Shown piece by piece: positions 2,130 to 22,194 of a DNA stretch of 64,000 nt. The notes under the pieces were generated by a model. The model ran no database searches. It worked only from the letters and a program-made list of their open reading frames with translations, and was not told the origin of the DNA. The DNA comes from a virus (taxonomy: Duplodnaviria > Caudoviricetes): the IMG/VR virus record IMGVR_UViG_2930734477_000003, positions 5,708 to 69,707 of that record; one strand, 5' to 3'. The first letter of the stretch is position 1; each line of letters begins with the position of its first letter. The position numbers were made by a program, and so were the translations under genes.

Positions 2130-3602
2130 TCAGGCCCCGAAGTCGAACAGGGCGATGTCCAGGAGGTCGCCGGGCGTGAAGTCGCCGGCGATGTCCTGGA
2201 GCGAGCTGTAGTTGTCGGCGATGTCCTGGAGGGTGAAGCCGGCGGCCTCCAGGACCGACGGCCACGCCTCGGTCTGCTGCACCTCCAACTGGAACCACCG
2301 GTAGGAGTCGTACCAGTTGGGCGACTCGGTGTCGTCGGAGAGCGCGTAGTAGCCGTCGAGGCGGCTCAGCGAGTCCTGCTTGCGGAACAGCAGGACGCCC
2401 TCGGTGAGGTCCGCGAGGACGGCGTTGAGCGCGTCGCCGGCGGCGTCGGTCTCCGTGCGCACGGTCATCGTGGTGGACGGCGCGGACCGCGTCTTGCCGA
2501 CGACGATGATGCGGCCGCCCGCGTTGAACTTGGTCGCGTCGCGGGTGCGCTGCCACTCCAGCGGTGTCTCGATGCGCACCGCCGCGCCGATGCCGCGGAC
2601 GGCGTCGGAGATGACGTCGGAGTCGACGGTCGACGTGATCGTGCTGGAGTAGATCGTCCACTGGAGGCCGTTGACGTCGGTGAGGACCGCCAGGTACTCG
2701 TGCGCGACCCCGAACGGCTGCTCCGCGTCGACGCGGAGCAGCACGTCGCTGCCGCTCACGTCGACGTCGACGGCCGCGCGCACCGGGGTGAGGGTGTCGC
2801 CCACCTGCCGGTAGAGGCCGACACTGGCGATGTTGTCGGCGAGGAGCCCGGTCGCGGAGATCAGGTTGCGCGGCGGGAACACGGTCTGCGGGAAGGCTTC
2901 CATGTCGGTTCCGGCTTCGCGCAGGCGCAGCACGCCGGCGACGCCGGTGGACGCGGAGCTGAGTGTCGCGGCCAGGGTCGGCGCCTGGGTGCCTGATCCG
3001 GAGGAGACCGCGCCGGTCGCGGTGACGAAGCGGGAGTCGTGGCCCGCGGTGATGGCGTCGTCGGCGCGCTCGGTGATCGTGCCGAAGGTGATGCCGGACG
3101 CGGTGATCGCCTCGGCGCTGAAGCTGGCCGTGGACAGGGGGATGCCGTAGCCGATGACGGCCGTGTCGCCCGCGACCCAGGTCAGGGCGGTGCTCGAGGC
3201 GGCGGAGAAGCCGGTGCCGGAGGAGGTGTCCTCGCCGAAGGCGTACGCCCACCGCCAGCCGGTCCCGGCCGACCGCGTGAAGGAGTAGATGCGGGCGGCG
3301 ATCGTCGACCCGGTGCCGCCGGTGGGGATGGACACGGTGGGCGCGGTGTCGGAGGCCACCAGCTCCCGCACGAAGAAGGTGAGGCGGCGGGGCCCGGCGG
3401 CCGCGCCGAACGCGCCGCCGCCCCCGCTGGCGGAGCCCGCGAACGTCCACCCTGACGGGGTGGCCGGGACGGGATCGTCCTGGTGTCCGGACACGACCTG
3501 GAGCACGGCGAGCATCCCGGCGCTCGCTCCGGCCGGCAGGGCGGGCGTGACCGACTCCGCTGCCGACGAGGAGGCCCCGGCGGCGCCGAACGAGATCGTC
3601 AT
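2130..3602 (-). CDS. Minor tail (distal tail-like) protein with N-terminal beta-sandwich insert
   Basis: 490 aa immediately after tape measure gene. Confidence 0.75.
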   Translation of the reverse strand: MTISFGAAGASSSAAESVTPALPAGASAGMLAVLQVVSGHQDDPVPATPSGWTFAGSASGGGGAFGAAAGPRRLTFFVRELVASDTAPTVSIPTGGTGSTIAARIYSFTRSAGTGWRWAYAFGEDTSSGTGFSAASSTALTWVAGDTAVIGYGIPLSTASFSAEAITASGITFGTITERADDAITAGHDSRFVTATGAVSSGSGTQAPTLAATLSSASTGVAGVLRLREAGTDMEAFPQTVFPPRNLISATGLLADNIASVGLYRQVGDTLTPVRAAVDVDVSGSDVLLRVDAEQPFGVAHEYLAVLTDVNGLQWTIYSSTITSTVDSDVISDAVRGIGAAVRIETPLEWQRTRDATKFNAGGRIIVVGKTRSAPSTTMTVRTETDAAGDALNAVLADLTEGVLLFRKQDSLSRLDGYYALSDDTESPNWYDSYRWFQLEVQQTEAWPSVLEAAGFTLQDIADNYSSLQDIAGDFTPGDLLDIALFDFGA

Positions 3603-6600
3603 CCGCGCGGCCCCACCTTCGCCTCGTACGCCATCTTCTTCTCACTGGCCTTGATCATCGGGCGGACCACGCCCTGGAACATGCCGAGCAGCTCGCCGCT
3701 GTCGAGGCGCAGTTCGCCGGTGAGCTGGCCGTCGCCCGTGCCGCCGCTCGCCTGGACCGCGGCCGCCAGTTCCCGGACGGCCTGCGCCTGCCGGACGGCT
3801 TCGGTCCCGGCCGGGCTGGGGATGACGATGCGGCGGGTGGAGACGCCGACGGCGGCGTTGGCCATGCGCTGCGCGGAGGTGACGACGGTCGGGGTGTGGA
3901 CGTCGATGCCCTCGGCGACGCCGAGGGCGACGTTCTTGCCGATCTGGTCGCGCATGACCACCGACGGGCTTTTGATCTTGAGGGCTTTCTTGATCTGCTT
4001 GACCAGCTCGGACGCCAGTTTGCTGATCTGCTGGCCGAGCTCCTTCTCCTGGCTCTTCAGGCCCGCGAGGAAGCCCTTCCCGGCATCCTTGCCGCTGTCG
4101 AACATCAGATCGGCCATGTCCCGGCCGAAGCTGGTGGCGAGGCTGTTGCCCGACTTCATCAGCGAGTTCAGCTTGGCGATGTCCTGGGTGGTGACCGAGC
4201 GGTCCGACAGGAGCGTCGCGAGCTGGCTGCCCGGCCCGGCGTCCGACAACTGCTGGAGCAGATCCTTGGACGCGCCGCGCGCCTTCAGCGACTTGCTGAG
4301 CGAGACGAAGCCGGACGCGGTCTTCTGCTGCCCGGTGAGCTGCGATATCAGATCCTTGACCGAGCCGGCGGAGGTGCCGGCGATGGAGAGGAACTCCTTG
4401 ATGTTCCCGGCCTGGTCGGTGGCGTACTCGTTCGCGGCCTTGATCTGGGACTGGATGGAGGCCCGCTTGTCGGCGAGGGTCTGGAGCCTGGAGCCCTTCT
4501 TCTGGATGCTCGCGGCCGTCTTGTCGTAGCCGGCGTTGAGGAGTTTGGTCGCCAGGCTCTTGACCGTGGAGCCGATCTTCGCCGACGTGCCCGTCTGGAG
4601 CGTCTTGAGCAGGCCGGTCTTGATCGTGTTGGAGATCGAGTTCTTCGCCGACCGCTTCGCGTTCTTCAGGCTCACGTTCGCGGCCGCGAGCTCCTTCTGG
4701 GCCGCCTGGAGCTTCTTCTGCGCCGCGGCGAGGCCCTTGCGGCGCCGCTTCGCGGTGGCGACCGCCTCTTTGGCGTCCTCGACCTTGGCCCGCGCGCGGC
4801 GCTGGCGGTCGGATGCGTTCTGGATGGTGCCGGAGGCGTAGCCGGGCAGCTTGATGCCCATCTGGCCGGCCATGGCCATCGAGTCCTTGTTGGAGAAGAT
4901 GCGGGTCCCCTTCGGGGTGACCTGCATCAGCTCGGGGCCCTTCTCGCCCACCCACGCGGTCTGGCCGAACGGGGCGAGCCCGCCGCGGGTGCCCTTGGCG
5001 TAGCCGCCGGGCCTGGTCATGACGCTGACCCAGTTCGCGCCGTAGCGGTGCATGGCGTAGTTGACGCCGGCGTAGATGTTGGCGAGCGGGTCGTAGATGC
5101 CGCGGCTCTTGAAGGGGCCCGCGTACGCGGCGAACGTGCTGGGGATGGTCTGCATCAGGCCCTGGCTGGGGTGCCCGGCCTTGGCGTTGGAGTCCCACAG
5201 GTTGATGGCCATCGGGTTGCCGCCCGACTCCATCTGGATCCGCTTCAGCACCGGCTGGAGCGCGCTGCCCGGGGCGCCGAGCATGGCGAGGACCTGGGAG
5301 ACCAGCGGCGCCCACGTCCCGCCGCCCTTACCGCCGCCTCCGCCGCCGCCGCCGAAGAGGCTGCCGAAGATGTCGCCCAGCTTGGAGCCGAGGCCGCCGA
5401 GCGCCTTGAGCGCCTTGCCGGGCAGGCTGGAGACGGAGACGAGGCCCTTCTTCACGATGGAGCCCAGGGCGCTGGGCATGTCGCCGAAGATCTTCCGGGC
5501 GATGGCTCCGCCGCTGGTCTTGGCGAGGCCCTTGAAGAGGCCCGCGACCAGGTGGCCGCCGATGCCCTCGAACACCTTCGACGGCGAGTGGATCCCGAAG
5601 TAGCTCTTGACCGCGTTGACGACGGGGTCGACGACGTTCTTCTTGATCCACGACCCGACGCCCTTGATCGCGCCGGTGATGCCGGACTTCAGCCCGGAGA
5701 TCAGCGCGGTTCCCTTGGCCGTCAGCCACGTGCTCGCCTTGGAGAACGCGCCGGTCACGGGCGAGATCACATGGGTCTTCGTCCACCCGGCGATGCCCTT
5801 GGCCACGCCGATGGCGCCGGACTTGAAGCCGGCCACCAGCGCGCGGCCCTTGGCGAGCAGCCAGGTCCCGGCCGACCGGAACGCGCCCACGACGGGGTCG
5901 ACGACCCACTTCTTCCCGAAGGCGCCGATGCCCTTCGCCGTGGAGATGGCGCCGGACTTGAAGCCCGCTACCAGCGCGCGGCCCTTCGTCAGCAGCCAGG
6001 TGCCCGCGGACTTGAAGGCGCCCACGACCGGGTCGACGATCCACTTCTTGCCGAAGGACCCGATGCCGGTGGCCACGCGGATCGCGCCGGACTTGAAGCC
6101 GGACACGAGCGCCGAGCCCTTGGCGAGCAGCCAGGTCCCGGCCGACCGGAACGCGCCCACGATCGGGTCGATGATGATGCGCTTGGCGAAGCCGCCGATG
6201 CCCTTTGCCGCGGTGAGCAGTCCTCGCCCGAGGCCCTTGACGAGGGCGGTTCCCTTGGAGACCAGCCACCCGGCCGGCTTGGCGAAGGGTTTGAGGATGA
6301 GCCCGAGGAGTTCACCGATCTTCGACAGGACCCAGGTGGCGCCCTTTTGGAAGCCGGTGCCGAGGGACTTGAGGGCGCCCTTGCCCTTTTCGAGCAGCTC
6401 CAGGCCCCACAGGCCCAGGCGCGTGGTGATCAGCCCGGCCTCGCGCTCGATGACGGCCGCGCCCCGGGGGAAGATCTTGGCCAGGCCCTTCCAGAGGCCG
6501 GAGCCGATGAATTTGAAGATCTTTCCGAAGAGCTTCGAGATCGGCGCCGTGATCTTGGACAGGCCGGAGAACAGCGGCGCGAACATCTTCAGGATCGGGA

Positions 6601-8443
6601 TCTTCGACAGGACCTTGCTGATCGGTCCCGCGATCTTGCCGATGCCGAAGAGGGACAGCGCGGCGATCACCGTGTCCCAGAAGTGCTTCTTCCAGAAGTC
6701 CGCGGAGAACAGCTCCTGGCCGAAGCTGGCAATGAAGCCGATCATGAAGCCGAGGGTCTTGCCGCCGACCTGCTTGCCGATGTCGACCCAGTCCAGCGAC
6801 GCCATCGCCGACACGAGCTGCTTGGCGAGTTTCGCGCCGTTCTTCGCCAGCCACTGGAAACTCGTGCCGAGCGCACTGCCCAGCTTCTCGCCGACCTTGG
6901 TCCAGTCGACCGCGGAGATCCCGCCGGTGACGGCGTTGCGGATCTGCTCGCCCAGCTTCTGCGCCGTCGACTTCGGAGGTGCCGTCTTGACCTTCGCCAG
7001 AGGCGCGGTCAGCCCGGACCCGCCGTGCGGCATCGGCGCGAGCGCAGGCCCCTTGACGCCGGCCGCCGGCGCGACCTGCCCGACCCCGTAGTGCGGCTTC
7101 GGGGCGAGCGCGGGCCCCTTCGCGGCCGCCCCCGTCTTGCCGGAGCCGAGGTGCGGCGAGGAGTCGAACAGGCCGCCCATCAGGTCCTTGGCGGCCTTCT
7201 TCGTGCCGGTCAGGCCCGTGAAGAAGTCGCTCACCATGGTCTTGGCCTGGGTGAACCGGGACCTGATCTGCTCGACGGGCACGATGTCGGCGACCGCGTG
7301 GGAGAACGCCTTGACCTTCGGGATGCCGTCGTCGTTGACCCAGCCGGCCAGGTTGCGCACGGCGAGCGTGACCCCGGACAGCGCCTTGGTGGCGCCGGCC
7401 AGCAGGCCGGTGTCACCGACCTCGATCATCAGCCCTTCCCACGCGTTCTTCAGCCTGATGACCTCGCCGCGCCAGCCCTTCATCTGGATCTTCGCGATGC
7501 GGTCCGCGGTGCCGCCGGAAGCTTCCAGCTCCTTGGTCATCCGGGCGAGCTTGTCCGAGCCCTGCTGGATCAGCGCGGCCATACCGGGGCCCGCCCGCTG
7601 ACCGAAGATCGTCATGATGTCGCCGGTCGTCGCGCCCTTCTTGGCGAGCTGATCGACGATGGAGGTCAGCGGCCGCAGCTTCCCGTCGGCCGTCGACACG
7701 TTCACGCCCAGGTCCTTGAGCGTGGTGGCGATCTTCTTCGTGGGCGACAGGAGCCGGGTCACCGCGCCGCGCAGCGCGGTGCCCGCCATGGACGCCTTGA
7801 TGCCGGCGTTGCCCATGAGGGCCGTCGCCGCGACGGCCTCCTCGAACTGGAGCCCCGCCTGGTGTGCGATCGGCCCCGAGTACTTGAAGGCTTCGCCGAG
7901 GTCATCGACGCTGGTGTTGGCCTTCACGGACGCCTTGACCATGGCGTCGACGGCGTGCGGGATCTCCCCGATCTTCATGCCGTAGCCGGTCAGGACGTTC
8001 GTCGTGATCTCGGCGGCCCGCGTCAGGTTGAGCTGCTCCGACGACGCCAGCGACAGCACCGACGGCATCGCCCCGTAGATCTGGTTCACCGTCAGGCCGG
8101 CCGTGGCGAGCTGCGCCATGGCGTCAGCCGACTGCGCCGCCCCGTACTGGGTCGACTTGCCCAGATCTTTGGCCTGGTTGCGCAGCCGGGCCAACTGTTT
8201 GCCGGTCGCCCCGGACAGGGCGGCGACCCTGTTCATGTTCTTCTCGAAGTCGCCCGCGGCCTTGATCGACGCCGCGCCGAGCGCGCCCAGACCGATGGCC
8301 CCGACCGCCAGGCCCGCCTTGATGGCGGCGCCGACCTTCGTCGACGTGGACGCCAGCCGGTTCGCCGACCGGCCGACCTGCCGGAACGTCGCAGAAGCCC
8401 GGTCCCGGCCGATGAGGGCGTAGACGATCGCGGACGTGGCCAT
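3599..8443 (-). CDS. Tape measure protein with lytic transglycosylase (SLT) domain
   Basis: About 1614 aa; TP901-type core (GIKASMAGTALR); MESGGNP...SQGLMQ...YDPLANI SLT motifs; follows chaperone. Confidence 0.95.
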   Translation of the reverse strand: MATSAIVYALIGRDRASATFRQVGRSANRLASTSTKVGAAIKAGLAVGAIGLGALGAASIKAAGDFEKNMNRVAALSGATGKQLARLRNQAKDLGKSTQYGAAQSADAMAQLATAGLTVNQIYGAMPSVLSLASSEQLNLTRAAEITTNVLTGYGMKIGEIPHAVDAMVKASVKANTSVDDLGEAFKYSGPIAHQAGLQFEEAVAATALMGNAGIKASMAGTALRGAVTRLLSPTKKIATTLKDLGVNVSTADGKLRPLTSIVDQLAKKGATTGDIMTIFGQRAGPGMAALIQQGSDKLARMTKELEASGGTADRIAKIQMKGWRGEVIRLKNAWEGLMIEVGDTGLLAGATKALSGVTLAVRNLAGWVNDDGIPKVKAFSHAVADIVPVEQIRSRFTQAKTMVSDFFTGLTGTKKAAKDLMGGLFDSSPHLGSGKTGAAAKGPALAPKPHYGVGQVAPAAGVKGPALAPMPHGGSGLTAPLAKVKTAPPKSTAQKLGEQIRNAVTGGISAVDWTKVGEKLGSALGTSFQWLAKNGAKLAKQLVSAMASLDWVDIGKQVGGKTLGFMIGFIASFGQELFSADFWKKHFWDTVIAALSLFGIGKIAGPISKVLSKIPILKMFAPLFSGLSKITAPISKLFGKIFKFIGSGLWKGLAKIFPRGAAVIEREAGLITTRLGLWGLELLEKGKGALKSLGTGFQKGATWVLSKIGELLGLILKPFAKPAGWLVSKGTALVKGLGRGLLTAAKGIGGFAKRIIIDPIVGAFRSAGTWLLAKGSALVSGFKSGAIRVATGIGSFGKKWIVDPVVGAFKSAGTWLLTKGRALVAGFKSGAISTAKGIGAFGKKWVVDPVVGAFRSAGTWLLAKGRALVAGFKSGAIGVAKGIAGWTKTHVISPVTGAFSKASTWLTAKGTALISGLKSGITGAIKGVGSWIKKNVVDPVVNAVKSYFGIHSPSKVFEGIGGHLVAGLFKGLAKTSGGAIARKIFGDMPSALGSIVKKGLVSVSSLPGKALKALGGLGSKLGDIFGSLFGGGGGGGGKGGGTWAPLVSQVLAMLGAPGSALQPVLKRIQMESGGNPMAINLWDSNAKAGHPSQGLMQTIPSTFAAYAGPFKSRGIYDPLANIYAGVNYAMHRYGANWVSVMTRPGGYAKGTRGGLAPFGQTAWVGEKGPELMQVTPKGTRIFSNKDSMAMAGQMGIKLPGYASGTIQNASDRQRRARAKVEDAKEAVATAKRRRKGLAAAQKKLQAAQKELAAANVSLKNAKRSAKNSISNTIKTGLLKTLQTGTSAKIGSTVKSLATKLLNAGYDKTAASIQKKGSRLQTLADKRASIQSQIKAANEYATDQAGNIKEFLSIAGTSAGSVKDLISQLTGQQKTASGFVSLSKSLKARGASKDLLQQLSDAGPGSQLATLLSDRSVTTQDIAKLNSLMKSGNSLATSFGRDMADLMFDSGKDAGKGFLAGLKSQEKELGQQISKLASELVKQIKKALKIKSPSVVMRDQIGKNVALGVAEGIDVHTPTVVTSAQRMANAAVGVSTRRIVIPSPAGTEAVRQAQAVRELAAAVQASGGTGDGQLTGELRLDSGELLGMFQGVVRPMIKASEKKMAYEAKVGPRG
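5625..6300 (-). repeat. About 5 copies of a 135-bp (45-aa) repeat inside tape measure gene
   Basis: Recurrent DPVVGAF(R/K)SAGTWLL(A/T)KGxALVxGFKSGAI. Confidence 0.85.
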
Positions 8444-8496
8444 GGCTGCGCCCCCCATCTCGCGCTCGCGCGCGGTCCAGGGGCCGGTCGGCCGGT

Positions 8497-8703
8497 CTAC
8501 AGGTTCGGCATGCGGGACTTACTGGGGCCGCCTGCGGCCCTGCGCTCCTCCGCCTCGCGCTCCTCCAGCTCGATGCGGTAGAACGCGCGCCACTCGCTCA
8601 GCTCTCGGGAGCTGATCCGTCGGAGGAGCTCGTCGACGGTGCATCCGAGGTCTCGGGCGAGGACGAAGGCGAATCGCCGGTCTGGCCGGCCTCGGAGTTT
8701 CCC
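8497..8703 (-). CDS. Tail assembly chaperone -1 frameshift extension (gpGT-like)
   Basis: Slippery G-GGA-AAC at 8703-8697; -1 frame reads RRFAFVLARDLGCTVDELLRRISSRELSEWRAFY. Confidence 0.85.
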   Translation of the reverse strand, partial: GKLRGRPDRRFAFVLARDLGCTVDELLRRISSRELSEWRAFYRIELEEREAEERRAAGGPSKSRMPNL

Positions 8704-9065
8704 TCGATCTCCCGCTCGTTGGCGTCGCCCATGCCGGACAGCTCGGCCGCCACGTCGTACAGCATGTCGAGGATCGCGCCCGACTTCTTGCCGAGGGCGG
8801 GCGCGTCGGTGTCCTTGAAGAGCCGGTTGCCGCTGTCGTCGACGAGGCACTTGACCAGCAGCTTGGCGCGCGCGTTGTCGCGGACCAGGACGACTTCCTT
8901 CGTCCCGTCGGGCTTGGGCCGGATCTGCTGGATGCTCGCCTCGTAGGCGTCGCGCTCGATGCCGGTCAGGCCGCGCACGAGGACCTCGCCGCCCCACGCG
9001 GGGACGTCGACGGGCTTGATCTGGGTGTCCTCGGCTCCGAGGATCGCGTCTGCGGACAGCGCCAT
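8598..9065 (-). CDS. Tail assembly chaperone (gpG-like)
   Basis: VDVPAWGGEVLVRGLTG motif; position before tape measure. Confidence 0.85.
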   Translation of the reverse strand: MALSADAILGAEDTQIKPVDVPAWGGEVLVRGLTGIERDAYEASIQQIRPKPDGTKEVVLVRDNARAKLLVKCLVDDSGNRLFKDTDAPALGKKSGAILDMLYDVAAELSGMGDANEREIEGNSEAGQTGDSPSSSPETSDAPSTSSSDGSAPES

Positions 9066-9073
9066 GGGTGAAG

Positions 9074-9159
9074 TGCCTTTCTGGCGTTACGGATCATGAC
9101 GGCGGCCAGTGCCAGGCCGTGATGAGCCGTCGAGCGCCAGTGCCAGGCGGGCGACAGCG
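9074..9159 (-). promoter_or_regulatory. Structured 5' leader, copy 1 (twin UGGCACU-loop hairpins plus AGAAAGG RBS) before tail chaperone
   Basis: 85/86 identical to 17746-17831; hand-folded hairpins. Confidence 0.8.
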
Positions 9160-9171
9160 AAGGGTGCGACG

Positions 9172-9648
9172 TCAGCGGATGTCGCGGGTGATGGAGTCGA
9201 CGACCTGGGCCGCGGCGCGCCGTCCGGCGACGCCCGCGAGGCGGACGACCTTGAAGAAGTAGGGGTGCGGCTTCTGGGTGACCCAGTTCTCCCGGTTGCC
9301 GAAGACCGGGTGCCTCCACCGCTTGGTGCCCTCCATGCCCTTGGGCAGGGCTTTCATCGTCGGGGGCATCTTGCGGCCGTCGACGCGGATGGCGACGCCC
9401 GCATCCCGGCCGACCGTGCGGACCTCGATGCGGGTCGCCTTCACCATCCGGCCGCGCAGCCCGTCGGCGGTGTACGGCCGCTTGGAGGGGATGTTCCGGA
9501 TGGAGTTGCGCACCAGCGGCACGTAGGGCTGCGCGACAGCCCGCAGCTCCTTGCGGAACCGCTTCTTCAGCTCCTGGTTGTCCATCCGGTTCAGCTCGCG
9601 GGCGATGCGGCGCAGGTCGTCGCCCGTGCGCATGTCGACCCTGATCAC
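9172..9648 (-). CDS. HK97 gp10-like tail-component protein
   Basis: Basic 158 aa; WRHPVFGNRENWVTQKPHPYF motif. Confidence 0.7.
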   Translation of the reverse strand: MIRVDMRTGDDLRRIARELNRMDNQELKKRFRKELRAVAQPYVPLVRNSIRNIPSKRPYTADGLRGRMVKATRIEVRTVGRDAGVAIRVDGRKMPPTMKALPKGMEGTKRWRHPVFGNRENWVTQKPHPYFFKVVRLAGVAGRRAAAQVVDSITRDIR

Positions 9649-9657: not shown

Positions 9658-10143
9658 TCAGGCCGCCGGGACCGTGACGTCCTCGGCCGGCTCCGACGTG
9701 ATCGTGAACTGCACTTCGATCTTCGCCGGGTCCTCGATGTCCGTCATCTTCGGCGCGGACGCCACCTTCACGGGGAAGACGTCCATGGTCTTGCCGGCCT
9801 CGTCGCCCTCGGGGAACTGGACGATGAAGCCGGTGGTGTCGCGCGGCAGGAGCTGACGCACGTCCTGGGAGTCCTCGGACGCGTACATCGTGATGCTGGA
9901 GTCGTCGGCGGTGATCCGGCCCGGGATCTTCGACGTGAACCGGGTGCCCAGGTCGGGGGTCTCCTGCGACTCCGACGTGGTCTGGAAACCGGAGACGTCG
10001 GCGATCTCGCCGGTCAGGTCGGTGCCCGCGTTCAGCTCGGCACGCGACGGGGCCGCCTTCGTGGCGATCGACGGGACGAAGTAGTACTGGCGTGTGCCCG
10101 GCGGGATGTAGCGGGACGACGCGGAGATCGGCGTGGCGGCCAT
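9658..10143 (-). CDS. Major tail tube protein
   Basis: APSRAELNAGTDLT and TPDLGTRFTSKIPGR motifs typical of actinophage tube proteins. Confidence 0.85.
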   Translation of the reverse strand: MAATPISASSRYIPPGTRQYYFVPSIATKAAPSRAELNAGTDLTGEIADVSGFQTTSESQETPDLGTRFTSKIPGRITADDSSITMYASEDSQDVRQLLPRDTTGFIVQFPEGDEAGKTMDVFPVKVASAPKMTDIEDPAKIEVQFTITSEPAEDVTVPAA

Positions 10144-13944: not shown

Positions 13945-14256
13945 TCAGGCGTCCTTCGCGGCCGGCTTCGCCGCAGTCTTCTTCGCCGCAGTGCGGGGAC
14001 GGGCCGCGGTCTCCGGCTTCGCCTCGACGACCGTCTCCGGCAGCGCGGCCGCCGCGGTGTTCTCCGGCGCGGCCGGCTCGACCGCCTCCTCCCGCTCCTG
14101 CTCCGTCTCGCCCGCGTTCACGTCGTGCCCGTAGTCGGCGAGCAGCACCCTGGCGACGTGCGCGGCCTGCGCGGTCCGTCCGGCGGCCGCATACGACGCC
14201 CACTCCTCGATCATCGCCTGCCGGACCGCCGCGTCGACGTCACGGATCTCGCTCAT
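13945..14256 (-). CDS. Hypothetical protein
   Basis: MSEIRDVD...; ATGA overlap; Lys/Ala-rich tail. Confidence 0.7.
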   Translation of the reverse strand: MSEIRDVDAAVRQAMIEEWASYAAAGRTAQAAHVARVLLADYGHDVNAGETEQEREEAVEPAAPENTAAAALPETVVEAKPETAARPRTAAKKTAAKPAAKDA

Positions 14257-14948
14257 AGTTCCCTCACCTGCTCGATCTCGGGTAGCCGGGCGTAGTACTG
14301 GTCCTTCAGGGCGCGCCGCATCGCCGACCGCTGCCCCGTACGGTGCTCCAGGCGGACGTCCCACAGCGGCAGCGCCGGCTCGGCCCGGTGCACACTGTCG
14401 TTCCCGACCAGCACCCGCTTCCCGCCGTCCAGGCCCGGCGCCGTGACGACGTAGTGGGCCTGCTCGATCCGGATGCCGGGCAGCGCCCGGAACAGCACCC
14501 GCAGCGGGAACTGCGAGTCCTGGCCGTCGCCGCGCTCCCACAGCATCACCTCGGCGACATCGAGATCCGTCTCACCGAGGATCTTCTTCGTGTCCGGGGG
14601 GACCTGGGTGAACACCTCGTCCGCGTCCACCCGCAGCAGCCAGTCCACGCCCGGCTGCGCCATCGTCATCGCGAGGCGGAACATCCAGTCGCGCTTGGCG
14701 ACCTCGTTGCCCCACCACGGCTCGCGCGGCACATGGACCGTGCACCCGATCCCGGCGCCCGCCGCGGCGCGGGCGATCGTGTCGGCCTGCTCCGACCCGG
14801 ACGCCGGCTTGCGGACAGCACCGGGGAACAGGGCGTACGGGCCGTCGACGGCGACGATGTGGTCGCAGACCTGGGCGAGCCCGGCCACGCACTCCGCCAG
14901 CCACGGGGCGGGCTCCTCGTACCAGGACAGCAGGCCGATCACGCGCAC
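14253..14948 (-). CDS. GT-A fold (family 2-like) glycosyltransferase
   Basis: HIVAVDG and WLLRVDADE (DxD) motifs. Confidence 0.75.
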   Translation of the reverse strand: MRVIGLLSWYEEPAPWLAECVAGLAQVCDHIVAVDGPYALFPGAVRKPASGSEQADTIARAAAGAGIGCTVHVPREPWWGNEVAKRDWMFRLAMTMAQPGVDWLLRVDADEVFTQVPPDTKKILGETDLDVAEVMLWERGDGQDSQFPLRVLFRALPGIRIEQAHYVVTAPGLDGGKRVLVGNDSVHRAEPALPLWDVRLEHRTGQRSAMRRALKDQYYARLPEIEQVREL

Positions 14949-15664
14949 GCCGCACCCCCTGCCAGGCCCCGGGTGGCCGGATGCCGGCCGTAGTCTTCGG
15001 GGAAGTCGATGTCGTCGGTGGCGTCGTCGATCTCCACCCACCACGGCGGCTGCACGAGGTGCTCGCGCAGCGGCGTGCCCTGTAGCAGGCGCAGCATCGT
15101 CCACCCGTGCTTCGTGGGATCCGCACGGCCCGCGTCCTGCTCGCGGCGGACGGCGTAGGTGAGGCGGCCCATCTTCGCGCTGTCGTGGCCCCGCCACGAG
15201 TTCGCGAAGATCTCCCCCCACGGGGAGCCGGTGATCCGGGATGCCTGCGCGCGGCCGTAGAACTTGAAGCAGCTCTCGCCCCAGTGGATCACGTCCGCCT
15301 TGGTGAAGATCGTGTCCAGTGCCTGGTCGGTGAACCACACGTCGCCGAGCAGCAGCACGTTGACGCCTACGTGAGACCACACCGGCCGGGACGACTCGAA
15401 TTCGTTGCGGCAGCCGGGCGCTGCCCGGTGCGTCCGCACCCCGTAGGCGTGCGCCAGCTCCTCGTAAGGGCCTGGGTCGTCCGGCGGCACCGTCAGCCAC
15501 ACGTCGGCACTGAAGGCGGCCAGCCGCCCCAAGGTGAGCTCCAGCAGCGGAACCACCGGACCGTCAGCGTCCAGGGAGCCGCGCACCGGCGCGAAGTGCG
15601 AGCGCACCCCCAGATGCCCGCCCCACTTCGTCTGAGGCCCGGCCGCCGCCACGATCACCCGCAC
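14939..15664 (-). CDS. Sugar/choline-phosphate nucleotidyltransferase-like protein (NTP_transferase fold)
   Basis: IVAAAGPQTKWGG N-terminal signature; LLLGDVWF; DDIDFPEDY. Confidence 0.7.
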   Translation of the reverse strand: MRVIVAAAGPQTKWGGHLGVRSHFAPVRGSLDADGPVVPLLELTLGRLAAFSADVWLTVPPDDPGPYEELAHAYGVRTHRAAPGCRNEFESSRPVWSHVGVNVLLLGDVWFTDQALDTIFTKADVIHWGESCFKFYGRAQASRITGSPWGEIFANSWRGHDSAKMGRLTYAVRREQDAGRADPTKHGWTMLRLLQGTPLREHLVQPPWWVEIDDATDDIDFPEDYGRHPATRGLAGGAACA

Positions 15665-16311
15665 GCCAGCGCCTCCCGCACGAACACGACGTCGTTCACC
15701 CGGTCGTACGACGTGCCCTCGCCCGGGCCGCCCCGCACATACCAGGAGATCTCCTCGTAGCTGCGCTCCCACACCGCCGCCACCGCGAAGCCCTGCCCGG
15801 CCATGAACGCCACCACCTCGTCGTGCGGTGCGGCCATCGTGCGGTCCTCGAGGGTGCACGTCTCGCACACCACCACCTGGAAGCCGGCCAGGCGCTCTCC
15901 GGCGCCCTTCAGCACATCCAGCTCCAGCCCCTGCGCGTCCACCACCAGCATGTCGGCGTCCGGCGCAGCGATCGCCTCGACCGTCGTGACGTCCACCGCC
16001 ACCGTACTCAGGATCCGGTCCCCGGGATGCGGCTCGGCCAGGCTCGACGACGTCCTGATCACGTTCACCGACAGCGTGCCCCGGCCCGGCCGCGCGCCGC
16101 ACGCGGCCTCGACGACCGTGGCCCCGGGGAACGACTCGCGCAGCCGTCCGGCCGCGAACGGGCTCGGCTCCACCAGCGTGAACGCCCCGATCCCGGCCTG
16201 CCGGTAGAACGGAACCTCCTCACCCAGGTGGGCCCCGACGTGCAGCACATGCTGCACGTCGAGCCCGAGCCCGGCCAGGAGAGAGGGCAGCGCCTCGAAC
16301 GGGTTCGTCAT
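15655..16311 (-). CDS. FkbM-family SAM methyltransferase
   Basis: VLHVGAHLGEE and VVDAQGLELDVLKG motifs. Confidence 0.88.
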   Translation of the reverse strand: MTNPFEALPSLLAGLGLDVQHVLHVGAHLGEEVPFYRQAGIGAFTLVEPSPFAAGRLRESFPGATVVEAACGARPGRGTLSVNVIRTSSSLAEPHPGDRILSTVAVDVTTVEAIAAPDADMLVVDAQGLELDVLKGAGERLAGFQVVVCETCTLEDRTMAAPHDEVVAFMAGQGFAVAAVWERSYEEISWYVRGGPGEGTSYDRVNDVVFVREALACG

Positions 16312-16342
16312 GATGCTCCCCTCTCCCCTAACTGACGGCACG

Positions 16343-17737
16343 TCAGAACGATGGGGCGACCAAGCCGGTCCCCGCCACCTCGACGATCGACTTCGGGTAC
16401 CGGGCCGCCGTGAACGCCAGGTAGCCGTACACCTGGAGCCGCACCGTGAGCGTGCCCGAGCCCACGTCCGGCAGGACCCGGGAGCGGATGCCCGACTCGT
16501 ACAGCAGCAGGTCCGACGCGCGGACGATGTGCACCACGTCCTGGTTCGTGCCCGCGCCCAGCGTGGTGGGCATGTTCGGGTCGGTGATGACGGGCAGGCC
16601 GTGCATCTGGCCCACCACCTGCTCCGCGGCGACCGCGCCGAGCGTGGCGATGTTGTTCTGCGGGTTGCCCGCGTCCGGCGTCACCAGGGGACGGCCGTTG
16701 TTGTCCGTCGCCGCGAGCAGGTACGCCCACCGCCGCGGGTGCATGACGATCGCGGTCGGCGGCATGAACCGCAGCGTGTGGACCCGCTGCACCGCGTCCG
16801 CGATCTTCGAGTAGAGCTGGGCGACGGTCGGCGTGGCCGACGTGTAGGTGACCGTCTCGATGCTGCCCGTCGCCCGGACGCCGGTCACCTGGCCGGACAT
16901 GCCGGAGCCGGAGATGACCTGGAGGTCGAGCTTCGTCGCGTAGTCCGCCGTGAGGTCCCGGAAGACGACCTCGTCGAAGGAGACCGGGGACTGGTCGAGG
17001 AGCTGGATCGCCACGTCCTGCTGGCCGGCGATGGTGCGCACCGGGGCGGTGATGAACGTGTCGGTCAGGTCCGTCTCCGACACGGCGCCGTTGTCGGAGG
17101 TCTGGATCGCCGTGGTGGTGCCGGTGGCGACCTTGGGGATGTTGATGGAGTCGGTGCCGCCGGGCAGCGGCTGCGACAGCGCGAGGTTGGCGTACGCGCG
17201 GCCCGCGCGGGCGACCTCGATGAACTGGTTCATCAGCCACAGCGGCGGGACGGCGTAGCCGCCGTTGCCGTCGGTGCGGTTGAGGTCGCGGTACTCCTGC
17301 TCGGAGGCCACGTCCTGGGCGTGCCGCTGGAGACGGTCGCGCGCCTGCCCGTCGGTGTCCATGTTGAGCTGGACCTTCGCCAGGTCCTGGAGGTACGAGC
17401 GGCCGTTGCCGCGCACGTAGGTGCGCGCCTCGTTGACGGTCTCGACGCGGGCCTTGGCCCGCTTCACCGCGGCGGCGCCCTCGGTGACCGAGCGGGAGCG
17501 CTCGGCCTCCTCGGACAGCTCCGAGATGCGCTCGTCGAGCTGGCGCAGCTCGTCGTCCTTCGCCTTGATCTGCGCGGTGAACTCGCGGAACTCCGCGTCC
17601 TCCTCCGGGAGGAGGTCCTCGCGGGCCTCCTCCTCGGCGAGGTCGGTGATGGCCTTGCGCTTGGCGAGGATGTCCTCGCGCTCGCGGGCGGTCTGCTCGC
17701 GTCGTGCGACCAGCCGCCGGAAACGCTCGTCTGACAT
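16343..17737 (-). CDS. HK97-fold major capsid protein with N-terminal coiled-coil (delta-like) domain
   Basis: GGYAVPP, VMHPRRW and GLPVITDPNMP motifs; follows protease. Confidence 0.95.
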   Translation of the reverse strand: MSDERFRRLVARREQTAREREDILAKRKAITDLAEEEAREDLLPEEDAEFREFTAQIKAKDDELRQLDERISELSEEAERSRSVTEGAAAVKRAKARVETVNEARTYVRGNGRSYLQDLAKVQLNMDTDGQARDRLQRHAQDVASEQEYRDLNRTDGNGGYAVPPLWLMNQFIEVARAGRAYANLALSQPLPGGTDSINIPKVATGTTTAIQTSDNGAVSETDLTDTFITAPVRTIAGQQDVAIQLLDQSPVSFDEVVFRDLTADYATKLDLQVISGSGMSGQVTGVRATGSIETVTYTSATPTVAQLYSKIADAVQRVHTLRFMPPTAIVMHPRRWAYLLAATDNNGRPLVTPDAGNPQNNIATLGAVAAEQVVGQMHGLPVITDPNMPTTLGAGTNQDVVHIVRASDLLLYESGIRSRVLPDVGSGTLTVRLQVYGYLAFTAARYPKSIVEVAGTGLVAPSF

Positions 17738-17745
17738 GACGAGTC

Positions 17746-17831
17746 TGCCTTTCTGGCGTTACGGATCATGACGGCGGCCAGTGCCAGGCCGTGATGAGCC
17801 GTCGTGCGCCAGTGCCAGGCGGGCGACAGCG
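17746..17831 (-). promoter_or_regulatory. Structured 5' leader, copy 2, before major capsid gene
   Basis: 85/86 identical to 9074-9159. Confidence 0.8.
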
Positions 17832-17875
17832 GCCGTGGTCCGAGCTGGACCACGGGAAACTCAGGGGTGCCGACG

Positions 17876-18961
17876 TCAGTCGGCGGGCTCGCGGAACATC
17901 GGCTTGCCGGGGCCATCGAGGTGGCCACGCAGGTGCCGCTCCACGACGTCCTTCTGCTCCTGCGGTATGTCCGCCTTCGCCAGTTGCGCCAGGGCCTGCC
18001 GCACGGCGGGCAGGTTCGCGGGCGCGCCGACGCGCGGCTCGTGGTGTGCGAAGCGGTAGGAGGCGGCGTCGGTGGGGTCACCGTCGGGGTCGACCCAGGC
18101 GTGCATGTAGCGCAGCACGACCTCGCTGCCGCCCGCGGCGGCTGTCGCCGTCCGACGGTCGAAGCCGGGCTCGGTGCACACGCTGGTGGTGTGCGCCGGG
18201 ATCTGCGGTGACAGGCGCACCGCAACGTCGCCGCCCTCGGCGATCGCCTGCGCCTCGGCCACGGTGAGCCAGCCGGATTCCTTTGCCTTCGGCCGTGGCT
18301 TCATCTGCCGGTGCAGCGCGAGGACGTTGTCCCGGGCCCGCGTGAGCCGCTGGAGGTCGACGCCGTCCGAGCGGAGTTCCGCCATGGCGGCGTCGGGGTC
18401 GAGGGCGGCCAGGACCTCGAGGGCGCCGGCCGCGCTGTTGATCTCCGCGCTCGTGGCGGGGTTCGCGCCGAAGTTCACCACGCTGACGTCGCCCTTGTGC
18501 AGGGACACCTCCAGCAGGCGGCGTTCGGTGTAGTCCTCGTTCCACTCCTGCCGCTTCACCCGGAACCCGAACGACATCTCGTCCATGTCGCCGCGCCGCA
18601 TCTTCGTGCGCAGCCGCTGCACGTCCGGGTCATCAGGGTCGAGGTCGGCCTCGACGTGCAGGCCCTTGGTGTCGGCCGCGAGCTGGAGCGTGCCCGACTT
18701 CGTGCGCGCGAGCGGCATGCCCTCGTGGTTGATGAGCAGGTGGAGGTCCGGCTTCGCCTTCAGCGTGGTGTCGAACGCCTTCCGGTCGACGATCTCCGTC
18801 CAGCCGTACGGCGGGCCGCCGTACACGTCGTACGGCGACTCGAACACGGAGGCGTAGCCGGTGAGCGTCAGCTCCCCGCCGTCGGCCCGCAGCTCGAGGC
18901 CGCCGTTGATCTGGATCGCCCGCCGCTCGGGGACGTCGATGAGGTCGCGGCGGTCAGCCAT
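17876..18961 (-). CDS. HK97-family prohead protease with C-terminal extension
   Basis: GYASVF, LLINHEG, EMSFGF and DVSVVNFGANP motifs. Confidence 0.92.
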   Translation of the reverse strand: MADRRDLIDVPERRAIQINGGLELRADGGELTLTGYASVFESPYDVYGGPPYGWTEIVDRKAFDTTLKAKPDLHLLINHEGMPLARTKSGTLQLAADTKGLHVEADLDPDDPDVQRLRTKMRRGDMDEMSFGFRVKRQEWNEDYTERRLLEVSLHKGDVSVVNFGANPATSAEINSAAGALEVLAALDPDAAMAELRSDGVDLQRLTRARDNVLALHRQMKPRPKAKESGWLTVAEAQAIAEGGDVAVRLSPQIPAHTTSVCTEPGFDRRTATAAAGGSEVVLRYMHAWVDPDGDPTDAASYRFAHHEPRVGAPANLPAVRQALAQLAKADIPQEQKDVVERHLRGHLDGPGKPMFREPAD

Positions 18962-20234
18962 GGTTCCCCCTCGGGGCCTTGACGAGGCGCAGCCCCGTGT
19001 CGTGAGGCGGCCTCTCGCCGCGGATCTGTGGGACCGTGATGTTCGAGCCGGCCTGGATGGGCAGCGGCGTGTAGTCCTGGCCCTGGCCGTCCGGGATCGG
19101 CGGCTCGTCCTCGCGGGCGCGCAGCTCGTCGAGGTTGTTGAGGCCGATGAGGCGCGACTTCTCGTAGACGGAGTGCCGGGTGAGGATGTCCACCCGGATC
19201 AGCGCGTCGGCGTTGAACTTGATGAACTGGCCGCGCGGCAACTGCGCGGAGAGGTGGTTCTCGAGCTTCACCAGGTACGGCAGCAGCGCGTCCTGGATGA
19301 ACTCGATCTGCCGCTGCTCCGGGGAGCTGTAGGTGTAGGAGCCGCCGGTCTCGCCGCCGATCTTCTCCGGCGGGATGCCGTAGATCGCCGCGACCTGTGT
19401 GGCCGTCAGCCGCTGCGTCTCGCAGAACTGCGCCTCTTGGACGCTGATCGTGATCGGCTGGTACTCCCAGTCCTTGCCGTACACGATCGGCTCGTGCGAC
19501 CGGATCGCGGACACCAGACGCCGCTTGATCGTCCCCGCGTCCTTCTGCGTCAGCGTCTGCTGCGTGTTGCGGAAGTGCCCGGGCGGCTGCCCGCCCGAGC
19601 GGAAGTAGTCGTCGACGAACTTCTGCGCGGCCAGACCGGTCGACACCGTCACCGCGTACGCGGCGATCGGCGACAGCCCCCACACCCGGCCCGGCATCGT
19701 CATCCAGGGGATGTGCACGATGTCGTACGCCGGGATCTCGATCCCGCAGTACGTCCAGACCGGATCCGTGAACGACCCGCGCTGCCCCATCGGCATGCCG
19801 TCCTGGACGAACACATCCGCCGGGTTCAGCCACTCGATCCGCGTCGGGAACTCCAGCCAGTCCCGCTCCATGACCAGACCGACGGCGTTCCCGCGATAGA
19901 CCAGCGACGTCATCGCCCGCCACAGCCAGTCGTCGATCGTCCCCTGCGCCGACGGCCTCTGGAACAACGACGACAGCGACAGCTTCGACGTCGTCTCACC
20001 CACCCGCCGGTACTGCTTGATCGGCAGCGACGCCACCGACGACGCCAGCAGCCGGCCCGCCGCGAACACCGGAGTCAGCCGCAGCGCACCGTGCTCCGAC
20101 ACCGCCGTCGGCGACGCCAGATCGTCCACCGGCCACGACACGTCACCGACGCCGATGTCCCGCTGCTCCGCCGCCCTCGCTGCCGCGCCGTTGCCGCCGC
20201 GAGTCCAGCCCCACCGGCGGAAGGGGTTGCGCAT
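18954..20234 (-). CDS. Portal protein (HK97 family)
   Basis: GLSPI, AAIYGIPP and NELR-like (DELRARED) motifs. Confidence 0.93.
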   Translation of the reverse strand: MRNPFRRWGWTRGGNGAAARAAEQRDIGVGDVSWPVDDLASPTAVSEHGALRLTPVFAAGRLLASSVASLPIKQYRRVGETTSKLSLSSLFQRPSAQGTIDDWLWRAMTSLVYRGNAVGLVMERDWLEFPTRIEWLNPADVFVQDGMPMGQRGSFTDPVWTYCGIEIPAYDIVHIPWMTMPGRVWGLSPIAAYAVTVSTGLAAQKFVDDYFRSGGQPPGHFRNTQQTLTQKDAGTIKRRLVSAIRSHEPIVYGKDWEYQPITISVQEAQFCETQRLTATQVAAIYGIPPEKIGGETGGSYTYSSPEQRQIEFIQDALLPYLVKLENHLSAQLPRGQFIKFNADALIRVDILTRHSVYEKSRLIGLNNLDELRAREDEPPIPDGQGQDYTPLPIQAGSNITVPQIRGERPPHDTGLRLVKAPRGNHG

Positions 20235-22188: not shown

Positions 22189-22194
22189 TCTCAG

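What the first reader, a model, noticed from the sequence alone, without database searches (positions are those of the whole stretch)
9074..9159. 86-bp twin-hairpin leader duplicated in front of the tail-chaperone and major capsid genes
Seen: 9074-9159 and 17746-17831 are identical at 85/86 positions. Both are non-coding and end in the AGAAAGG RBS 8 nt before an ATG. On the mRNA each folds into two hairpins with the same 7-nt loop: GCUGUCG-CC-CGCC[UGGCACU]GGCG-C(U/A)-CGACGGC and AUCA-CGGCC[UGGCACU]GGCCG-CCGUCA-UGAU. The only difference between copies falls in an unpaired internal loop. Inference: tandem identical loops suggest a binding site for a dimeric RNA-binding protein, i.e. a cis-regulatory RNA coordinating translation or processing of two morphogenesis proteins needed in high copy. 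I do not recognise it as a named RNA family.
Basis: partly seen in the sequence, partly recalled or inferred. Interest (0 to 1): 0.8.

Follow-up and report, generated by a model that had tools for sequence, protein, structure and literature searches.

The report
Capsid mRNA leader with GGCAC hairpins
A short non-coding stretch in front of a prophage's capsid gene, copied once more in front of a tail gene, folds into hairpins with an invariant loop that recurs before capsid genes of many phages of Streptomyces, Nocardia and Mycobacterium, and is probably an undescribed RNA control element for making the most abundant virion protein.

Summary
Window 9074-9159 and 17746-17831 match at 85 of 86 bases. 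Both lie on the minus (sense) strand just 5' of the tail assembly chaperone and major capsid genes of a 69.7-kb provirus.

The hairpins are real. Among 70 distinct hairpins from capsid-homologue loci, chosen by loop sequence alone, the loop core GGCAC never varies. The four stem pairs nearest the loop are paired in 57-70 of 70, with many compensatory changes. G-U outnumbers A-C 12 to 2, which points to sense-strand RNA.

The element is primarily a capsid-gene leader. It sits in the gap between the protease and capsid genes of many actinobacterial phages, including Mycobacterium phages MiaZeal, Wanda and Bipper. In five complete genomes every hit of 23 bits or more lies there. The chaperone copy is a lineage-specific insertion, since relatives have a directly coupled start instead.

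Rfam has no match, and I found no description in print.

Only terminase, portal, protease and capsid are shared with MiaZeal and Bipper. I therefore infer a host factor that binds the loops and raises capsid translation or mRNA stability. That mechanism is untested.

The parts
17746..17831 (-). Leader copy B (H1 + H2 + SD), 5' of the major capsid gene
   Evidence: Homologous leaders lie in the same place in capsid-homologue loci.
9074..9159 (-). Leader copy A (H1 + H2 + SD), 5' of the tail assembly chaperone gene. It is a derived insertion.
   Evidence: Relatives G003 and G004 lack it and have TAGGAG(C/A)CC|ATG instead.
17803..17825 (-). Hairpin H1 of copy B (loop UGGCACU at 17811-17817)
   Evidence: Model R1, 28.4 bits; consensus fold.
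17772..17794 (-). Hairpin H2 of copy B (loop at 17780-17786)
   Evidence: Model R1, 30.8 bits; consensus fold.
9131..9153 (-). Hairpin H1 of copy A (loop at 9139-9145)
   Evidence: Model R1, 27.4 bits.
9100..9122 (-). Hairpin H2 of copy A (loop at 9108-9114)
   Evidence: Model R1, 30.8 bits.
17833..17855 (-). Hairpin H0: a 9-bp stem with loop AGCUC, just after the protease stop codon. It is present only at the capsid copy. In many relatives this hairpin carries a UGGCACU, CGGCACG or AGGCACU loop.
17748..17754 (-). Shine-Dalgarno AGAAAGG of the capsid gene, inside the repeat
   Evidence: Read from the sequence.
9076..9082 (-). Shine-Dalgarno AGAAAGG of the chaperone gene, inside the repeat
   Evidence: Read from the sequence.
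17726..17743 (-). Predicted small hairpin CUCGUC-AUGUCA-GACGAG with the capsid AUG in its loop (prediction only)
   Evidence: Predicted in the capsid-type leaders folded. Not tested for covariation.
16343..17737 (-). Major capsid protein gene (HK97 type)
   Evidence: PF05065 and phrog_2263. It is 62% identical to the capsids of MiaZeal and Bipper.
17876..18961 (-). Prohead protease gene (S78), upstream of leader B
   Evidence: PF04586, E 1.2e-33; phrog_7053.
8598..9065 (-). Tail assembly chaperone gene, downstream of leader A
   Evidence: phrog_344, E 5.8e-26.
9172..9648 (-). ORF of unknown function upstream of leader A. In relatives its stop codon abuts the chaperone gene's SD.
   Evidence: phrog_11991.

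Best explanation
The 86-nt unit is a cis-acting leader on the late (sense, minus-strand) mRNA. It holds two hairpins, H1 and H2. Each presents the invariant pentaloop GGCAC, closed by U.U. About 25 nt further on comes the Shine-Dalgarno AGAAAGG.

Shown here:
- The hairpins form on a single strand, and the pattern of wobble pairs points to the sense strand.
- Their loops are under strong purifying selection.
- The element is tied to one gene, the major capsid gene, across phages of at least three actinobacterial genera.
- The unit H1+H2+SD was copied as a block in front of the chaperone gene in this lineage.

Inferred, not shown:
- The loops are docking sites for a trans-acting factor.
- Only terminase, portal, the protease domain and capsid are shared between this prophage, MiaZeal and Bipper. 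The factor is therefore most likely a conserved actinobacterial host component rather than a dedicated phage protein.
- A phage would not keep, or copy to a second gene, a site that lets a host factor shut off its capsid. I therefore commit to a positive role. Binding raises translation initiation at the adjacent structured start region, or shields the capsid part of the polycistronic mRNA from decay. Either effect would give far more capsid than protease from neighbouring genes.
For: Hairpin structure:
- One search counted 70 distinct hairpins taken from capsid-homologue loci by loop sequence alone. The four pairs next to the loop are paired in 70, 69, 66 and 57 of 70.
- The covariation score is 0.451, against 0.199 in shuffles (0 of 500 shuffles reach it) and at most 0.169 when partners are slid.
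- Stems differ completely between lineages, for example CGUCG/CGACG, GGCUCU/AGAGCC and GGGAGGC/GCCUCCC.
- GGCAC windows upstream of capsid genes are paired at stem positions 1-4 in 73-82% of 113 windows. The figure is 35-42% in 1352 windows elsewhere in the same loci.

Strand and loop:
- G-U outnumbers A-C 12 to 2 in those four pairs. The loop ends are U..U in 55, C..G in 14 and A..U in 1.

Selection:
- Among 27 Streptomyces-type leaders the H1-H2 core is 85.9% identical. The capsid coding DNA is 79.7% identical and the protease 3' end 64.7%. The core is the more conserved of the two in 297 of 351 pairs.

Specificity:
- The window has four R1 hits of 27-31 bits; the next best is 17.5 bits.
- In MiaZeal, Bipper and three complete Streptomyces proviruses, every hit of 23 bits or more lies in the capsid leader.
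- 42 of 71 viral pattern loci and 10 of 122 genome pattern loci lie 5' of a capsid-type ORF. One locus in each set lies 5' of a chaperone gene.
- In annotated MiaZeal, Wanda and Bipper the hairpins fall in or at the unannotated gap between protease and capsid.

Portability: the chaperone copy replaces a directly coupled stop-SD-ATG junction.

A trans factor rather than RNA-only pairing: only 3 of 54 distinct leaders have a downstream complement to the loop at p <= 0.05, and 23 of 54 have none.

Shared genes.
Against: - No expression, 5'-end or binding data exist. No usable RNA run was found.
- No binder is identified. No RNA-binding domain was found in the four candidate sequences scanned against Pfam at E up to 0.1.
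- Within the Streptomyces subfamily the H1 and H2 stems hardly vary. The covariation therefore comes from the wider family, whose members are related and not independent.
- A single-sequence fold offers an alternative that pairs the 3' half of H1 with the pre-SD segment.
- Capsid relatives at lower identity carry quite different repeats or hairpins in the same gap. The GGCAC hairpins are thus replaceable.
- The direction of the effect (activation) and the host origin of the factor rest on argument alone.
Confidence: 0.45

Rival explanations
1. Processing and stability element. The single-stranded C-containing loops are endonuclease (RNase E) entry sites, or the GC-rich hairpins are barriers to exonucleases. 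Either way the capsid segment would be cut loose from the protease segment and would outlive it. No dedicated binder would be needed.
For: - The location is intergenic, inside a polycistronic late operon.
- The loop GGCAC offers two such cytidines.
- The hairpins come in tandem arrays of 2-4.
Against: - A barrier or a generic cleavage site would not need five invariant loop bases across phages of three host genera.
- The copied unit runs exactly through the SD, which suggests a link to translation.
Confidence: 0.2
2. Autogenous control by a protein of the protease-capsid module. Free capsid or protease protein would bind the loops and repress further translation, as described for P22 scaffolding protein and for RNA-phage coat proteins (recalled).
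For: - Protease (57-59% identity) and capsid (62%) are the only well-conserved proteins shared with MiaZeal and Bipper.
- The leader travels with these two genes.
Against: - The capsid N-terminus differs in the MiaZeal/Courthouse group of Cluster J, whose tblastn match starts at residue 25, although the loops are the same.
- The protease C-terminal part is not conserved.
- Capsids with the same N-terminal motif carry other leader types.
- Putting the chaperone gene under repression by capsid protein has no evident logic.
Confidence: 0.1
3. Processive antitermination site (nut- or put-like). The hairpins would load a factor onto RNA polymerase, or modify it directly, so that it reads through terminators in the long late operon.
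For: - Tandem hairpins with identical loops resemble boxB and put elements (recalled).
- A second copy ahead of the long tail-gene block would make sense as a re-loading site.
Against: - The site lies mid-operon and directly abuts an SD.
- There is only one site per genome in five complete relatives.
- No intrinsic-terminator-like site was found by the scan around either copy.
- No phage-encoded N-like protein is shared between the phages that carry it.
Confidence: 0.08
4. Direct pairing of the loop with ribosomal RNA. CUGGCAC is complementary to the universally conserved 16S rRNA stretch GUGCCAG at positions 515-521 (recalled, not from a call). The hairpins would then act as a protein-free translational enhancer.
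For: - The loop is invariant across host genera.
- The CGGCACG variant keeps 6 nt of complementarity, shifted by one position (my own reading of the recalled rRNA sequence).
Against: - A 7-mer match somewhere in a 1.5-kb rRNA is expected by chance in roughly one case in ten.
- That rRNA region is structured and lies in the decoding centre (recalled).
- The U/C and U/G changes at the loop ends are explained more simply by pairing with each other.
Confidence: 0.05
5. DNA-level site: an operator, a promoter element or a single-stranded DNA hairpin.
For: TGGCAC resembles the -24 element of sigma-54 promoters (recalled). In DNA the hairpins are inverted repeats.
Against: - The arms vary and covary while the asymmetric centre is fixed. 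This is the opposite of an operator.
- G-U outnumbers A-C 12 to 2.
- The orientation is always that of the gene.
- No sequence of fixed identity lies at the -12 distance, because that position falls in the variable stems.
- No sigma-70-like promoter was found.
Confidence: 0.04

Closest known systems
ANTAR-target RNAs (dual stem-loops bound by ANTAR response regulators, common in actinobacteria)
   Same: Two tandem hairpins with alike loops, separated by a short linker and placed in a 5' leader close to the SD. In actinobacteria these RNAs act on translation (PMC8164766, passages seen).
   Different: ANTAR loops are hexanucleotides with A at position 1 and G at position 4. Here the loop is UGGCACU, or a GGCAC pentaloop. 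The number of hairpins is 2-4, and the element is specific to a phage capsid gene.
CsrA/RsmA-regulated leaders (GGA motifs in hairpin loops, one overlapping the SD) (recalled)
   Same: A short motif is shown repeatedly in hairpin loops upstream of an SD. In 24 of the 34 Streptomyces-type leaders a further GGCA lies at the SD itself (AGGCA or GGGCA).
   Different: The motif is GGCAC, not GGA. CsrA is not known in actinobacteria (recalled). The extra GGCA at the SD is missing in the other 10 of 34 leaders.
Lambda nut boxB and HK022 put RNAs (recalled)
   Same: Phage-borne RNA hairpins with a conserved loop or paired stem-loops, present at two places in a genome.
   Different: Those sit promoter-proximal in early operons and act on transcription elongation. 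BoxB has a GNRA-like pentaloop. This element lies mid-operon, next to an SD, and occurs once per genome in most relatives.
Repeated short sequences near start sites in mycobacteriophages: start-associated sequences of Cluster K and the 17-bp repeats of Cluster O (recalled)
   Same: Conserved non-coding motifs placed just upstream of translation starts in actinobacteriophage structural or early genes.
   Different: Those are many copies per genome and are conserved in primary sequence. This is a single hairpin array before one gene, with covarying stems.
Phage Mu Com/mom translational activation (recalled)
   Same: A factor binding a hairpin just upstream of a structured translation start could open it.
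   Different: Com is a phage protein with a single target. No such phage protein is shared among the phages that carry this leader.

Membership tests
ANTAR-target RNA | [quoted passage not shown] | tested here: met
   H1 and H2 inner stems are 15 nt apart. The definition is from PMC8164766.
ANTAR-target RNA | Hexanucleotide loops | tested here: not met
   The loops are 7 nt (UGGCACU), or 5 nt if the end positions pair, in 70 of 70 hairpins.
ANTAR-target RNA | A at loop position 1 and G at position 4 | tested here: not met
   Sense-strand loop position 1 is U, C or A (55, 14 and 1 of 70). Position 4 is C.
Any Rfam 15 family | Covariance-model match at or near the gathering score | tested here: not met
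   The whole window at gathering threshold gives only a tRNA. Seven leader loci at E <= 1 give only a chance miRNA hit well below threshold.
Lambda-type boxB (nut) | GNRA-like pentaloop (GAAAA/GAAGA type; recalled) | tested here: not met
   The loop core is GGCAC, which ends in C, not A.
Lambda-type boxB (nut) | Promoter-proximal site in an early operon with a boxA partner and a phage N-like protein | tested here: inconclusive
   The site lies mid late operon. No small shared phage protein was found. BoxA was not searched for.
CsrA-binding leader | GGA core in hairpin loops and at the SD | tested here: not met
   The loops have GGC, not GGA.
Sigma-54 promoter | TGGCAC at -24 with a conserved TTGC at -12 (recalled) | tested here: not met
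   The bases 4-5 nt after TGGCAC belong to the variable stem (GGCG CUCG and GGCC GCCG in the window; others in relatives).

The most novel reading that the evidence does not exclude
Arrays of GGCAC-pentaloop hairpins are a previously unrecognised class of portable phage translation or stability enhancer. They would recruit a conserved actinobacterial host component, either an unknown RNA-binding protein or the small ribosomal subunit itself, to the capsid mRNA. This would set the large capsid-to-protease output ratio from adjacent genes. The unit would be modular enough to be copied in front of another gene, as happened here with the tail assembly chaperone.
Probability: 0.3. Interest if true: 0.8.

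Novelty: new variant of a known kind. Interest (0 to 1): 0.6.

Why it matters
How tailed phages obtain hundreds of capsid subunits per particle but far fewer protease molecules from neighbouring genes in one operon is mostly unexplained. Post-transcriptional control in actinobacteria, which lack Hfq and CsrA (recalled), is also poorly known.

This element offers a compact test case. It has five invariant loop bases, covarying stems and one target gene. It is also present in isolated phages of the laboratory host Mycolicibacterium smegmatis (MiaZeal, Wanda, Bipper).

Identifying the partner could reveal a new RNA-binding factor of Mycobacterium and Streptomyces. It could also yield a small portable expression element for these hosts.

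Tried and rejected
- RNA-only explanation for loop conservation. I looked for downstream complements of the loop in 54 distinct leaders. Only 3 reach p <= 0.05 and 23 have none of 4 nt or more. It is not general, although L143 (CCGUGCC) and the Cluster J type (AGUGCC) do have one.
- A switch that sequesters the SD. The single-sequence minimum-energy fold pairs the 3' half of H1 with CGCCAG and AGGC. The pre-SD segment and SD are not conserved in a way that keeps this helix, and the consensus fold does not recover it.
- Nucleotide searches. Blastn of the leader against 50,697 phage records gave no match. Blastn of L143 gave none.
- Promoter and terminator scans around both copies found nothing.
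- Sequencing runs. Only assembled contigs were found, plus one metatranscriptome holding 5% of the sampled words. I did not use read laying, because contigs cannot show RNA ends.
- Pfam scan of four candidate sequences: the only further weakly shared ORF (42753-43865), the protease C-terminal part, the ORF upstream of the chaperone gene, and the capsid N-terminal part. Nothing was above threshold.
- Earlier findings of this scan: none.
- Literature:
  - The Cluster J genome paper has no occurrence of stem-loop, hairpin or leader (PMC3706429; term search of the main text).
  - In the catalogue of about 10,000 viral structured-RNA candidates (PMC10690425), the readable spreadsheets hold no UGGCAC or TGGCAC. 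Its largest capsid-associated candidate found in the search (DNAVirus_1925) is aquatic. Its alignment archives could not be read, so prior inclusion there cannot be excluded.
  - Searches gave no description of the element. One search (the motif as text) returned only unrelated primer matches.

Full report
**1. The observation**

The + strand stretches 9074-9159 and 17746-17831 are identical at 85 of 86 positions. The one difference is 9133 A versus 17805 T (family D12). They are the only copies in the 69,707-base provirus record that contains the window.

All neighbouring genes run on the minus strand. They form a siphovirus late operon:
- small and large terminase, 21782-22261 and 20308-21843
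- portal, 18954-20234
- S78 prohead protease, 17876-18961
- major capsid, 16343-17737
- glycosyl- and methyltransferase-like genes and connector genes
- tail tube, 9658-10143
- an ORF of unknown function, 9172-9648
- tail assembly chaperone, 8598-9065
- tape measure, 3599-8458

On the sense strand each repeat ends in AGAAAGGCA, followed by 8 nt and the ATG of the chaperone or the capsid gene.

**2. Are the hairpins real?**

A single sequence does not settle this. The folding z-scores are modest, -1.8 and -2.7. The 100-nt core also has an alternative fold in which the 3' half of H1 pairs with the segment before the SD. Comparative data decide the matter.

I collected sequences in two ways.
- A pattern scan of IMG/VR for two copies of the 11-nt hairpin core gave 71 loci.
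- A search with the capsid protein, which takes no account of the motif, gave 80 loci. Many of these show 2-4 hairpins with loop UGGCACU, CGGCACG or AGGCACU in the 200 nt before the capsid gene.

Taking every GGCAC within 220 nt upstream of those capsid genes gave 113 distinct windows. Their flanks are paired at stem positions 1-4 in 79, 82, 82 and 73%. In 1352 GGCAC windows elsewhere in the same loci the figures are 40, 35, 42 and 36%.

I then took the 70 distinct windows whose 7-mer is one of the three loop forms. They were chosen by loop only. GGCAC is invariant in all of them.
- The four pairs next to the loop are standard pairs in 70, 69, 66 and 57 of 70.
- All eight tested pairs show changes on both sides.
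- The covariation score is 0.451, against 0.199 in shuffles (0 of 500 reach it) and at most 0.169 when partners are slid.
- In the first four pairs G-U occurs 12 times and A-C or C-A twice. That asymmetry is expected if the sense strand folds as RNA.
- The loop's end positions are U..U in 55, C..G in 14 and A..U in 1. The conserved unit is therefore a GGCAC pentaloop on a U.U, C-G or A-U closing position.

For the 34 leaders closest to the window, the consensus fold returns the following:
- H0, a hairpin just after the protease stop codon
- H1, with outer stem GCUGUCG/CGACGGC and inner stem GCC/GGC, 96.5% paired
- the inner stem of H2, 98.2% paired

Within this subfamily H1 and H2 hardly vary, so the covariation evidence comes from the wider family. 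These sequences are related, and the counts are not independent events.

**3. What the element is tied to**

Downstream of nearly all true hits lies an ORF that starts like the window's capsid protein, M(D/E/N)ERLKRLIARRE...KRKAITDL.
- By a simple rule (at least two hairpins with stems of 4 or more, then such an ORF), 42 of 71 viral pattern loci are capsid leaders and 1 is a chaperone leader.
- Another 7 have hairpins but no recognised start. At least three of these contigs are capsid-homologue contigs.
- The remaining 21 are mostly coding Pro-Gly-Thr-Gly-type repeats.
- Among 122 genome pattern loci, 10 are capsid leaders, in Streptomyces, Nocardia and a Nocardioidaceae genome. One is a chaperone leader, in Streptomyces hayashii. 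The rest are chance or coding matches.

A 23-position covariance model of the hairpin (R1) finds four hits of 27-31 bits in the window, which are the four hairpins. The next best hit is 17.5 bits. In five complete records, every hit of 23 bits or more lies in the capsid leader. Those records are a 110,764-base record that matches Mycobacterium phage MiaZeal in length and gene coordinates, a 77,832-base record that matches Bipper, and three Streptomyces proviruses.

In the annotated GenBank records the hairpins fall in the gap between 'capsid maturation protease' and 'major capsid protein'. These are MiaZeal and Wanda (Cluster J by my recollection; Omegavirus in the record) and Bipper. Wanda's first stem (AACCCUC/GAGGGUU) differs from MiaZeal's (CCCCC/GGGGG) by compensatory changes.

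The non-coding H1-H2 core is more conserved than the genes around it. Over 351 pairs of 27 leaders it is 85.9% identical. The capsid's first 900 nt are 79.7% identical, the protease 3' end 64.7% and the stretch between H2 and the SD 56.4%. The core beats the coding sequence in 297 of 351 pairs.

**4. The second copy**

In two Streptomyces proviruses whose chaperone proteins are 76-81% identical to the window's, the upstream ORF ends ...TRDI(R/T)*. Its stop codon runs straight into the SD and the start (TAGGAGCACC|ATG and TAGGAGACCC|ATG). In the window the same upstream ORF ends ...TRDIR*. Then come 12 nt, the 86-nt unit, 8 nt and the ATG.

The chaperone copy is thus a derived insertion of H1+H2+SD, without H0. 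It is shared only with a 98%-identical sibling (L005/L006) and one S. hayashii contig (L217). In that contig it has already diverged at 3 positions. The unit therefore behaves as a portable block that includes its own SD.

**5. Who could read the loops?**

I ran tblastn with all window ORFs of 50 aa or more against the MiaZeal and Bipper records. The shared genes are:
- large terminase, 26-32% identity
- portal, 30-34%
- the protease domain, 57-59%
- capsid, 62%
- one weak 110-aa match (ORF 42753-43865, with sub-threshold Ros/MucR and HTH hits)
- with MiaZeal only: a glycosyltransferase, plus two further weak matches of 30-40% over about 100-110 aa (ORFs 23613-24245 and 36052-37275)

Protease-leader-capsid is therefore a module that moves between otherwise unrelated phages. 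A dedicated phage-encoded binder is unlikely unless it is protease or capsid. Two facts argue against those. The protease C-terminal part is not conserved. The capsid N-terminus differs in the MiaZeal/Courthouse group of Cluster J, whose tblastn match starts at residue 25, while Wanda-type Cluster J capsids match from residue 4.

An RNA-only explanation, in which the loop pairs with a downstream segment, fails as a general rule. Only 3 of 54 distinct leaders have a complement at p <= 0.05 and 23 have none. A few lineages do have striking ones, such as CCGUGCC with CGGCACG loops in L143 and AGUGCC in the Cluster J type.

I infer that a host component conserved across Mycobacterium, Nocardia and Streptomyces reads the loops.

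**6. Mechanism to which I commit**

A phage would not keep, and would not copy to a second gene, a site that lets a host factor silence its most needed protein. The copied unit also carries the SD. I therefore favour a positive element on the mRNA. The GGCAC hairpins would recruit a host factor that increases initiation at the nearby start region, or protects the capsid segment from decay. That start region is itself predicted to be structured. A small hairpin holds part of the SD, and another holds the AUG in most of the capsid-type leaders folded (prediction only). The outcome would be far more capsid than protease from adjacent genes.

Confidence is 0.45 for this reading. For the broader statement, a cis-regulatory mRNA leader whose loops are read in trans, it is about 0.7.

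Shown: structure, strand, selection, gene specificity and portability. Inferred: the existence, origin and sign of action of the factor.

**7. Rivals**

- Processing or stability element (0.2). [quoted passage not shown]
- Autogenous repression by capsid or protease (0.1).
- Antitermination site (0.08).
- Direct pairing with 16S rRNA 515-521 (0.05; the complementarity is recalled).
- A DNA-level site (0.04). This is contradicted by variable covarying arms around a fixed asymmetric centre and by the G-U excess.

**8. Comparison with what is known**

The closest architecture is the ANTAR-target RNA. It has dual stem-loops, a linker of 2-25 nt, hexaloops with A1 and G4, and often a translational effect in actinobacteria (PMC8164766, passages). 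The arrangement and linker fit, but loop length and loop identity do not. This element works like that class but is not a member of it.

CsrA-type leaders, boxB/put and Mu Com/mom are functional analogies only; the comparisons are recalled. Rfam 15 has no match.

I found no description in print.
- The Cluster J paper has no mention.
- The viral structured-RNA catalogue has no loop string in its readable tables. Its alignment archives were unreadable.
- Searches gave nothing.

This absence claim is limited to those searches.

**9. Verdict**

This is a real, conserved and apparently undescribed RNA element.

Novelty: a new variant of a known kind, namely tandem-hairpin cis-regulatory leaders. 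Interest: 0.6.

Noticed in passing
L289 (MiaZeal, NC_028953.1, record 7929) and L291 (Wanda, NC_022067.1, record 7827): The annotated capsid starts (GTG) lie inside the leader, at the small hairpin GUGCCC...GGGC. A start preceded by GAAAGGA that aligns with other capsid N-termini (MEKHLE/VEKHLE) lies 45 nt downstream, at about 7974 in MiaZeal and 7872 in Wanda. The annotated starts may be too far upstream.
   Followed up: partly
L128, L134, L140, L098-L102, L109, L123-L126; L142, L146-L152; L112-L118, L127, L133, L139 (upstream of the capsid genes): More distant capsid relatives carry other repeated elements in the same protease-capsid gap. One type has 3-4 copies of CGCCGC(A/U)GCACC. A second has 3 copies of CGCGCCGGA. 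A third has twin hairpins with loop CGCUC, in loci whose capsid identity (64-65%) matches that of the M. abscessus prophage records. The window's own H0 loop is AGCUC and its sibling's is CGCUC.
   Followed up: partly
window 17726-17760 and homologous leaders (alignment A2): Most of the capsid-type leaders folded are predicted to form two small hairpins. One holds part of the SD, with stems such as UGCC/GGCA, UCCA/UGGA, CUCA/UGAG and CCCC/GGGG. The other holds the AUG, with stems CUCGUC/GACGAG or CGCUCA/UGAGCG. The differing stem sequences suggest compensation, but this was not tested formally.
   Followed up: partly
window 14253-16341 (-): Glycosyltransferase-like and FkbM-type methyltransferase-like genes sit between the capsid and connector genes. 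The glycosyltransferase is 55% identical to a MiaZeal gene, and MiaZeal has an O-methyltransferase next to its capsid gene. This may be a virion glycosylation module travelling near the capsid gene.
   Followed up: no
window 49910-50500: A long array of 12-nt tandem repeats, with 36 or more copies in register.
   Followed up: no
window 5656-6286 (-): Four to five 135-nt (45-codon) repeats lie inside the tape measure gene.
   Followed up: no
window 41619-41692 (-): A tRNA gene (Rfam RF00005, 44 bits) lies inside the provirus window. It may be an attachment-site tRNA or a phage tRNA.
   Followed up: no
L143/L144, L135/L136, L138, L148 (between the last hairpin and the SD): In these lineages a 6-7 nt segment just 5' of the SD-proximal hairpin is complementary to the loop. 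It is AGUGCC where UGGCACU loops are present and CCGUGCC with CGGCACG loops. This is a local compensatory pattern that the general test did not find elsewhere.
   Followed up: partly
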